Assembly (NCBI RefSeq): GCF_058153355.1
Contig: NZ_CM177019.1
Reading direction: 5' to 3' (one strand)
Length of the DNA: 64,000 bases
Of the stretch, positions 63,581-63,658 are shown one piece after another. Under the pieces are notes generated by a model. It was not told the DNA's origin and searched no databases. It saw nothing but the letters and a program-made list of their open reading frames with translations. Numbering within the stretch: position 1 is the stretch's first letter; every line of letters begins with the position of its first letter. The position numbers were made by a program, and so were the translations under genes.

Positions 63581-63607
63581 GAGTACGATACTAAAGCACT
63601 TGCAAAA

Positions 63608-63640
63608 ACTTTCAGTTCAATCATAATGCGTACTGAAAGT
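63608..63640. promoter_or_regulatory. 33-bp dyad (9-bp arms ACTTTCAGT / ACTGAAAGT) in the cI-cro intergenic (OR/PR/PRM) region
   Basis: Read directly; neighbouring sequence has several TACGAAA / TACGATA motifs also present near the putative OL. Confidence 0.3.
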
Positions 63641-63658
63641 ACGAAAAAGGATGTCCAC

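What the first reader, a model, noticed from the sequence alone, without database searches (positions are those of the whole stretch)
63581..63658. cI-cro intergenic region has a 33-bp dyad and TACGAAA-type repeats shared with the putative OL
Seen: ACTTTCAGT-N15-ACTGAAAGT, plus repeated AGTACGA(A/T)A motifs; the same TACGAAA core occurs near 57011..57040 beside the pL dyad. Inference: these repeats are candidate operator half-sites for this CI repressor, whose specificity differs from lambda.
Basis: partly seen in the sequence, partly recalled or inferred. Interest (0 to 1): 0.25.

Follow-up and report, generated by a model that had tools for sequence, protein, structure and literature searches.

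The report
Known phage 933W repressor operators
The repeats lie in the already well-studied switch region of a Shiga-toxin-phage-933W-type prophage, where the repressor binds five known 15-base-pair sites, so the finding is real but ordinary and its repeat units were drawn in the wrong register.

Summary
The 9-nt/N15/9-nt dyad is at 63608-63616 / 63632-63640, AGTACGA(A/T)A at 63582 and 63638, and TACGAAA at 57010, 57036 and 63640.

The locus is the immunity region of a 933W-type lambdoid prophage. CI is 233/235 identical to 933W CI, with residues 1-80 identical, and Cro is 75/75 identical.

The functional units are the published 15-bp rotationally symmetric operators, with half-site nG(A/T)AC(T/C)n:
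- OR3: 63573-63587
- OR2: 63605-63619
- OR1: 63629-63643
- OL1: 56975-56989
- OL2: 56999-57013

All five are identical to those of 933W.

The "33-bp dyad" is the pair of 9-bp cores of OR2 and OR1. AGTACGA is the right half-site of OR3 and of OR1 plus one flanking base. TACGAAA at 57010 is the outer half-site of OL2 plus flank. TACGAAA at 57036 lies in no operator, and 933W has no OL3.

TACGAAA occurs at chance frequency window-wide. It is not conserved at OL in 933W or in more distant relatives, whereas the GWACY cores are. An unbiased motif search recovers exactly the five 15-mers.

This is already known and of low interest.

The parts
63573..63587 (.). OR3, TGAACCATGAGTACG. It overlaps the cI start codon (CAT at 63578-63580) and the pRM start.
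   Evidence: Mapped from the oR3 feature of AF125520. Identical in 933W and phi24B. Recovered by the EM search.
63605..63619 (.). OR2, AAAACTTTCAGTTCA. It lies in the pR spacer.
   Evidence: oR2 feature of AF125520. It is the only site with A at position 2 of one half-site, as PMC3317979 states for OR2.
63629..63643 (.). OR1, CGTACTGAAAGTACG, a perfect 6+3+6 palindrome covering the pR start.
   Evidence: oR1 feature of AF125520. Top PWM hit in the window. It has T at positions 3 and 3', as described for the highest-affinity site.
63600..63627 (+). pR promoter: -35 TTGCAA, 16-nt spacer, -10 CATAAT.
   Evidence: Promoter scan. Same position as the pR feature of AF125520 and HM208303.
63581..63615 (-). 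pRM promoter (63588-63615) and its start at 63581. The start is one base before the cI ATG, so the cI mRNA is leaderless.
   Evidence: Mapped from the pM/pRM and 'pRM transcription start' features of AF125520 and HM208303. Not tested here.
62873..63580 (-). cI repressor, 235 aa, HTH_3 plus Peptidase_S24 domains.
   Evidence: 233/235 identical to 933W CI, with residues 1-80 identical including S41, K42 and K46. Pfam hits.
63659..63886 (+). cro, 75 aa.
   Evidence: 75/75 identical to 933W Cro.
56975..56989 (.). OL1, TGAACCAATAGTTCG. It lies in the pL spacer and overlaps the -10 hexamer.
   Evidence: Found by a PWM built from the three OR sites only. Annotated 'OL1 repressor binding site' in GQ499361. 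Identical in 933W.
56999..57013 (.). OL2, AGAACTATTGGTACG. Its outer half-site GGTACG plus flank gives the first TACGAAA (57010-57016).
   Evidence: PWM hit. The GQ499361 OL2 feature covers it with a 2-nt offset. It has T at 3' and C at 6', as PMC3317979 says of OL2.
56971..56999 (-). pL promoter: -35 TTGATA, 17-nt spacer, -10 CATTAT, reading towards N.
   Evidence: Promoter scan.
57036..57043 (+). Second TACGAAAT copy. It is not part of an operator and may be chance or a relic.
   Evidence: The best overlapping 15-mer scores 3.9. 933W has TACGAAGT here. 933W lacks OL3.
56507..56779 (-). N antiterminator, the first gene of the pL transcript.
   Evidence: Pfam N_peptide, E = 3e-32.

Best explanation
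The span is the right operator (OR) of a prophage that carries the immunity module of Shiga-toxin phage 933W.

CI dimers, and by inference Cro, bind five 15-bp rotationally symmetric operators. OR1 and OR2 overlap pR, so CI there shuts off cro and the lytic genes. OR2 also lies next to pRM. OR3 covers the pRM start and the cI start codon and autorepresses cI. OL1 and OL2 overlap pL and shut off N.

Shown here: the sequence identity to 933W, and the motif's statistics and conservation. Taken from the literature: CI binding to these sequences, their affinities, the absence of cooperativity and the absence of OL3. Inferred: the same behaviour in this prophage.
For: - CI is 233/235 identical to 933W CI, with an identical DNA-binding domain. 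Cro is 75/75 identical.
- The DNA is 97.7-97.8% identical to 933W, Min27 and phi24B.
- The oR1-oR3 features of AF125520 and HM208303 map onto 63629-63643, 63605-63619 and 63573-63587 with identical sequence.
- A PWM built from the three OR sites alone ranks the two OL sites among the top six of 64 kb, followed by a large score gap. GQ499361 annotates OL1 and OL2 at the same place.
- Base counts across the ten half-sites reproduce the text of PMC3317979: G at position 2 in 9 of 10, with the exception in OR2; A4 and C5 invariant; T at position 6 in 7 and C in 3; centre A/T.
- GWACYNNNRGTWC gives 5 matches against 0.43 expected, and 0 of 100 shuffles reach 5.
- An unconstrained EM search at widths 11 and 13 returns only these five sites, each on both strands; at width 15 they are the top sites, with one weak extra at 57038-57052.
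- Salmonella MG40 (CI 88% identical) and Providencia PSTNGR2lys (43% identity over the first ~144 aa, higher across the N-terminal domain, K42 and K46 kept) keep five sites with spacings 32-33/24 and 24 while the flanks diverge.
- pR and pL hexamers overlap the sites.
Against: - No binding experiment exists for this particular prophage.
- Two substitutions relative to 933W lie next to operators (63621, and 63628 directly abutting OR1), and several lie in the cro leader.
- The primary papers (Koudelka 2004, Tyler 2004, Bullwinkle 2011) are not held, and Figure 1A of PMC3317979 is not held as text. The OL sequences were therefore matched to the literature through described base counts and GenBank features, not letter by letter.
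- The GQ499361 OL2 feature is offset by 2 nt.
- PMC3317979 says OL1 also has favoured non-consensus bases at 3' and 6'. My OL1 has C at position 6 in one half but A at position 3 in both.
- An IS4 plus IS66-family insertion moves OL 6.6 kb from OR, against about 3.1 kb in 933W.
Confidence: 0.95

Rival explanations
1. The 7-9-nt direct repeats TACGAAA / AGTACGA(A/T)A would be the repressor half-sites, and the 33-bp dyad would be a single large operator.
For: The strings exist and are locally enriched, with 3 of the 7 window copies in the two control regions. EM at width 7 converges on TTCGTAC, the reverse complement of GTACGAA.
Against: - TACGAAA is at chance frequency window-wide.
- The last bases are not conserved even in 933W, which has TACGAAT and TACGAAG at OL, and the motif is lost in MG40 and Providencia.
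- Only GTAC/GTTC is conserved.
- The width-7 motif has low information (7.2 bits) and pulls in many unrelated sites, whereas widths 11-15 give the five palindromic sites.
- The published site is 15 bp and symmetric, and position 1 and the flanks matter little.
- OR2 and OL1 contain no TACGA at all.
Confidence: 0.03
2. The dyad would act as a nucleic-acid structure, either an RNA hairpin or terminator, or a DNA cruciform, rather than as protein-binding sites.
For: The terminator scan flags OR1 on the minus strand as a 6-pair stem with a 3-nt loop followed by a T-containing tail. The 9-nt arms could pair.
Against: - The pR -10 hexamer ends at 63627, so the pR transcript starts inside OR1 and lacks the left arm. 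pRM starts at 63581 and reads away from the dyad. No regular transcript therefore carries both arms.
- The same 'dyad' logic recurs at pL with a different sequence but the same 24-bp operator spacing.
- What relatives conserve is the GWACY half-sites, not the pairing potential of the centre. Providencia has GTC against GAA.
Confidence: 0.02

Closest known systems
Bacteriophage 933W immunity region (OR1-OR3, OL1-OL2, CI, Cro). Sources: Plunkett 1999 GenBank AF125520; Koudelka 2004 and Tyler 2004, both cited in PMC3317979; Bullwinkle 2012, PMC3317979.
   Same: All five operator sequences, their spacings (32/24 and 24), pR, pL and the pRM layout, the Cro protein and the CI DNA-binding domain are identical. 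CI is 233/235 identical overall.
   Different: - A few substitutions lie outside the operators (63621, 63628, the cro leader, the OL flanks).
- The genes downstream of cI differ: DUF6978 and DUF1828 replace stk/L0083/L0081.
- An IS4 plus IS66-family composite lies between OL and the cI operon.
- N and nutL are of another type. Homology to 933W starts near 56950, close to the inferred pL transcript start.
Lambda OR/OL switch
   Same: - Divergent cI and cro genes with three operators between them.
- pR and pRM are overlapped by the operators.
- The cI transcript is leaderless.
- A second operator cluster lies at pL upstream of N.
- The repressor has an HTH domain plus an S24 autocleavage domain.
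   Different: - Sites are 15 bp with half-site nGWACYn, not lambda's 17-bp TATCACCGC type, and no lambda-type site is present.
- The N-terminal domain is unrelated to lambda CI at BLASTP level.
- There are two OL sites rather than three.
- According to PMC3317979 and PMC5977221, OR1-OR2 binding is not cooperative and looping has no role in pRM control.
Immunity regions of Salmonella phage MG40 (Lederbergvirus) and Providencia phage PSTNGR2lys
   Same: They have the same five-site architecture and half-site consensus, and a related CI N-terminal domain with K42 and K46 kept.
   Different: - Positions 1 and 3 vary.
- The Providencia CI has a different C-terminal domain.
- Both relatives have a weaker third operator-like site 31-33 bp beyond OL2. 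It scores 12.0 and 10.2 and has no counterpart in the window.

Membership tests
933W-type immunity module (imm933W) | The CI DNA-binding domain is that of 933W, including the specificity residues S41, K42 and K46. | tested here: met
   Residues 1-80 are identical and CI is 233/235 identical overall. The residues are named in PMC3317979.
933W-type immunity module (imm933W) | Three 15-bp symmetric operators lie between cI and cro, with the 933W sequences and order. | tested here: met
   The OR3, OR2 and OR1 features of AF125520 map to 63573-63587, 63605-63619 and 63629-63643, and the sequences are identical.
933W-type immunity module (imm933W) | Two operators lie at pL and there is no OL3. | tested here: met
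   OL1 and OL2 are at 56975-56989 and 56999-57013. The best other 15-mer within 60 bp scores 3.9, against at least 14.1 for real sites. The absence of OL3 is stated.
933W-type immunity module (imm933W) | Half-site statistics match: G2 in 9 of 10, A4 and C5 invariant, T6 in 7 and C6 in 3, centre A/T. | tested here: met
   Counts against the text of PMC3317979.
933W-type immunity module (imm933W) | Cro is of 933W type. | tested here: met
   75/75 identical.
933W-type immunity module (imm933W) | CI actually binds these sites and represses pR and pL, non-cooperatively. | not testable with these tools
   This is known for identical sequences from EMSA and footprinting reported in PMC3317979 and the papers it cites. 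It is inferred for this prophage.
Lambda-type (imm-lambda) operators | 17-bp sites of the TATCACCGC...GGTGATA type. | tested here: not met
   There are 0 matches with up to 3 mismatches in the whole window.

The most novel reading that the evidence does not exclude
The second TACGAAAT copy (57036-57043) and the weak 15-mer CGAAATATGATTTTG (57038-57052, picked up by EM at width 15) could mark a decayed or very low-affinity third left operator. Two more distant relatives, Salmonella MG40 and Providencia PSTNGR2lys, have a better third operator-like site 31-33 bp beyond OL2, mirroring the OR3-OR2 spacing. The imm933W lineage may therefore have lost an ancestral OL3. That would bear on why 933W-type Stx prophages lack OL-OR loop control and are induced so easily.
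Probability: 0.1. Interest if true: 0.25.

Novelty: already known. Interest (0 to 1): 0.05.

Why it matters
The 933W switch controls induction of Shiga-toxin prophages, so these operators matter medically. They have, however, been mapped, measured and modelled since 2004. Here they only show that this prophage carries an intact imm933W module: it should be immune to 933W-type phages and repressible by their CI. The useful correction is methodological. Short direct repeats and long dyads seen by eye in a cI-cro gap can be by-products of adjacent quasi-palindromic operators, and the true unit emerges only from symmetry, motif search and comparison with relatives.

Tried and rejected
- Primary papers: I tried to read Tyler 2004 (PMC524894), Koudelka 2004 (PMC524892) and Bullwinkle 2011 (PMC3133280). 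None is held, so I relied on PMC3317979, PMC5977221 and GenBank features.
- Higher-order symmetry: I asked whether the 33-bp dyad at OR and the 33-bp dyad at OL have meaning beyond two palindromic operators. The inverted orientation beats the direct one only by the central triplet at OR2/OR1 (10 against 7 of 15) and by one base at OL (11 against 10). In Providencia the difference nearly vanishes (12 against 11). These are hand counts. I rejected it as a weak coincidence.
- OL3 in the window: the PWM score is 3.9 and the critical C5/G5' bases are absent. EM at width 15 includes the site only after over-fitting.
- Sixth strong match: AGAACCGTCAGTACG at 8266-8280 lies inside chromosomal arnT, and one such hit is within chance.
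- Source genome: no complete E. coli genome in the collection covers 80% or more of 54000-64000, so the source stays unidentified.
- Two early calls failed on a cro coordinate that was off by one. One paper search failed on a term that was too short.

Full report
**1. Observation**

ACTTTCAGT is at 63608-63616 and ACTGAAAGT at 63632-63640. They form a perfect 9-nt inverted repeat with 15 nt between the arms. Only 99 of 20,000 dinucleotide shuffles of the 78-nt span contain such a repeat.

AGTACGATA starts at 63582 and AGTACGAAA at 63638. TACGAAA starts at 57010, 57036 and 63640. At OL the two copies form the 8-nt direct repeat TACGAAAT.

The 7-mer is not enriched in the window as a whole, with 7 found against 7.35 expected. 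Three of the seven falling within two 141-nt regions is not chance (P about 5e-6).

The "pL dyad" is ACCAATAGTTC / GAACTATTGGT at 56978-56988 / 57000-57010.

**2. What the locus is**

- The 1.2 kb around the finding is 97.7-97.8% identical to Stx phages 933W, Min27, phi24B and about 100 others.
- cI (62873-63580, minus strand) is 233/235 identical to 933W CI. Both differences lie in the linker (positions 81 and 89), and the N-terminal DNA-binding domain is identical.
- cro (63659-63886) is 75/75 identical.
- GenBank AF125520 (933W) and HM208303 (phi24B) annotate oR3, oR2, oR1, pR and pRM.
- Transferred to the window, the operators are:
  - OR3: 63573-63587, TGAACCATGAGTACG
  - OR2: 63605-63619, AAAACTTTCAGTTCA
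  - OR1: 63629-63643, CGTACTGAAAGTACG
- All three are identical to those of 933W and phi24B.
- The promoter scan finds pR as TTGCAA-16-CATAAT at 63600-63627. OR2 therefore fills the spacer and OR1 covers the start.
- By the phi24B annotation, pRM starts at 63581, one base before the cI ATG. OR3 covers that start and the start codon.

**3. The left operator**

A weight matrix built only from the three annotated OR sites was scanned over all 64 kb. It places 56975-56989 (TGAACCAATAGTTCG) and 56999-57013 (AGAACTATTGGTACG) among the six best hits. The score then drops from 14.5 to 11.3 and then to 8.6.

Both sites are identical in 933W. GenBank GQ499361 labels the same positions "OL1/OL2 repressor binding site", with OL2 offset by 2 nt.

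pL is TTGATA-17-CATTAT on the minus strand at 56999-56971. OL1 sits in the spacer and over the -10 hexamer, and OL2 abuts the -35 hexamer. Centre-to-centre spacings are OL1-OL2 24, OR2-OR1 24 and OR3-OR2 32.

**4. Agreement with the literature**

PMC3317979 (Bullwinkle et al. 2012) describes five natural 933W sites. Each is 15 bp and rotationally symmetric about a central A/T pair. Position 2 is G in every half-site except one in OR2. Positions 4 and 5 are invariant A and C. Position 6 is T in 7 of 10 half-sites and C in 3. OR1 deviates from the consensus at positions 3, 3' and 7'. OL2 carries favoured non-consensus bases at 3' and 6'.

The ten half-sites derived here give exactly those counts.

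The same paper and PMC5977221 state that 933W has no OL3 and that CI does not bind OR1 and OR2 cooperatively. The title of Bullwinkle and Koudelka 2011 says that a long-distance loop plays no role at pRM.

One small discrepancy remains. The paper says OL1 shares the favoured 3' and 6' bases, whereas my OL1 has the favoured C6 but not T3.

**5.

I ran an unconstrained EM search on both strands, with no palindrome prior, over 63540-63680 and 56940-57080.

- At widths 11 and 13 it converges on exactly the five operators, each found on both strands.
- At width 15 the same five sites are the top sites, and the search also includes the weak site 57038-57052, discussed under point 4 of section 8.
- At width 7 it gives the weak motif TTCGTAC at 7.2 bits, which drags in many unrelated positions.

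The core pattern GWACYNNNRGTWC has 5 matches in the window against 0.43 expected, and 0 of 100 shuffles reach 5. Four of the five matches are operators. OR2 escapes the pattern because of its A at position 2.

Comparison with relatives separates the two parses:

- In 933W the OL strings are TACGAAT and TACGAAG.
- In Salmonella phage MG40 (CI 88% identical), OR1 is TGTACTGAAAGTACA and OL2 is AGAACTATTGGTACA.
- In Providencia phage PSTNGR2lys (43% identity over the first ~144 aa, with the N-terminal domain conserved and K42 and K46 kept), the sites are TGTACCATGAGTTCA, GGAACTGTCAGTTCA, TGTACTGAAAGTTCA, TGAACCAATAGTTCA and AGAACCAAAAGTACA.

The GWACY cores and the 24 and 32-33 bp spacings persist. 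The "CGAAA" part does not.

- The dyad is the core of OR2 plus the core of OR1.
- AGTACGA is the right half-site of OR3 and of OR1 plus one flanking base.
- TACGAAA at 57010 is the outer half-site of OL2 plus flank.
- TACGAAA at 57036 is in no operator. The best overlapping 15-mer scores 3.9.

**6. Mechanism**

Shown here: the protein and site sequences are identical to 933W, the sites overlap the promoters, and the motif is statistically supported and conserved.

Established for identical sequences in the literature: CI dimers bind each 15-mer, with K42 and K46 contacting positions 4 and 5. OR1 has the highest affinity. OR2 and OR3 have similar affinities, so pRM is strongly autorepressed. 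There is no cooperativity and no OL3.

Inferred: this prophage behaves the same way, and Cro uses the same sites.

**7. Rival readings**

- A structural role for the dyad as a hairpin, terminator or cruciform is unlikely. No regular transcript contains both arms, because pR starts inside OR1 and pRM reads away from the dyad. Relatives conserve the half-sites rather than the pairing.

**8. Context and side observations**

1. The left part of the window is chromosome. arnT is at 7272-8951, and it contains the only other strong operator-like 15-mer, at 8266-8280. One such hit is within chance.
2. Homology to 933W begins only near 56950, close to the inferred pL transcript start. N and nutL are of another lambdoid type.
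3. Between OL and cI there is an IS4 plus IS66-family composite (about 57213-61005). There are also three genes that replace stk/L0083/L0081 of 933W: DUF3024, DUF6978 and DUF1828. The latter two match the PADLOC candidate system PDC-M24 A/B.
4. MG40 and PSTNGR2lys have a weaker third site beyond OL2. EM at width 15 also included a weak site in the window at 57038-57052, which lacks the critical C5/G5' bases.

**9. Verdict**

The feature is the already characterised operator set of the 933W immunity region. Interest is low.

Noticed in passing
window 61147-62812 (minus strand): The genes co-oriented downstream of cI are not 933W's stk/L0083/L0081. They are DUF3024 (62471-62812; PADLOC PDC-S43), DUF6978 (61913-62425; PDC-M24A) and DUF1828 (61147-61923; PDC-M24B). 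This is a candidate two-gene defence cassette at the rexAB/stk position of the repressor operon.
   Followed up: partly
window ~57213-61005: An IS4 element and an IS66-family (ISCro1-like; tnpA, tnpB, tnpC) element lie side by side between OL/pL and the end of the cI operon. The same IS pair occurs contiguously in other E. coli genomes. It doubles the OL-OR distance to about 6.6 kb.
   Followed up: partly
window 8266-8280: A sixth strong 933W-operator-like 15-mer, AGAACCGTCAGTACG, scores 16.1. It lies inside the chromosomal arnT gene (7272-8951, minus strand). About 0.4-0.6 such hits are expected by chance.
   Followed up: yes
L004 2147-2161; L005 1880-1894: Salmonella phage MG40 (TGTTCTTTTAGTACG) and Providencia phage PSTNGR2lys (GGAACTTATAGTATT) have a weaker third operator-like site 31-33 bp beyond OL2. 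This mirrors the OR3-OR2 spacing and may be an OL3 that 933W and this window lack.
   Followed up: partly
window ~56896-56966: There is a mosaic junction close to the inferred pL transcript start. To the right the sequence is 933W-like. To the left, nutL and N resemble phage 21 / HK620-type sequences rather than 933W.
   Followed up: partly
window 63621 and 63628: Two substitutions relative to 933W (T for C just before the pR -10 hexamer, and G for A directly abutting OR1 position 1) are shared with Salmonella phage MG40. All operator bases are unchanged.
   Followed up: no
window 54000-64000: No complete E. coli genome in the collection covers 80% or more of this 10-kb stretch. The best covers 35%. 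This particular mosaic of imm933W, the DUF6978/DUF1828 genes and the IS pair is therefore not represented there.
   Followed up: no
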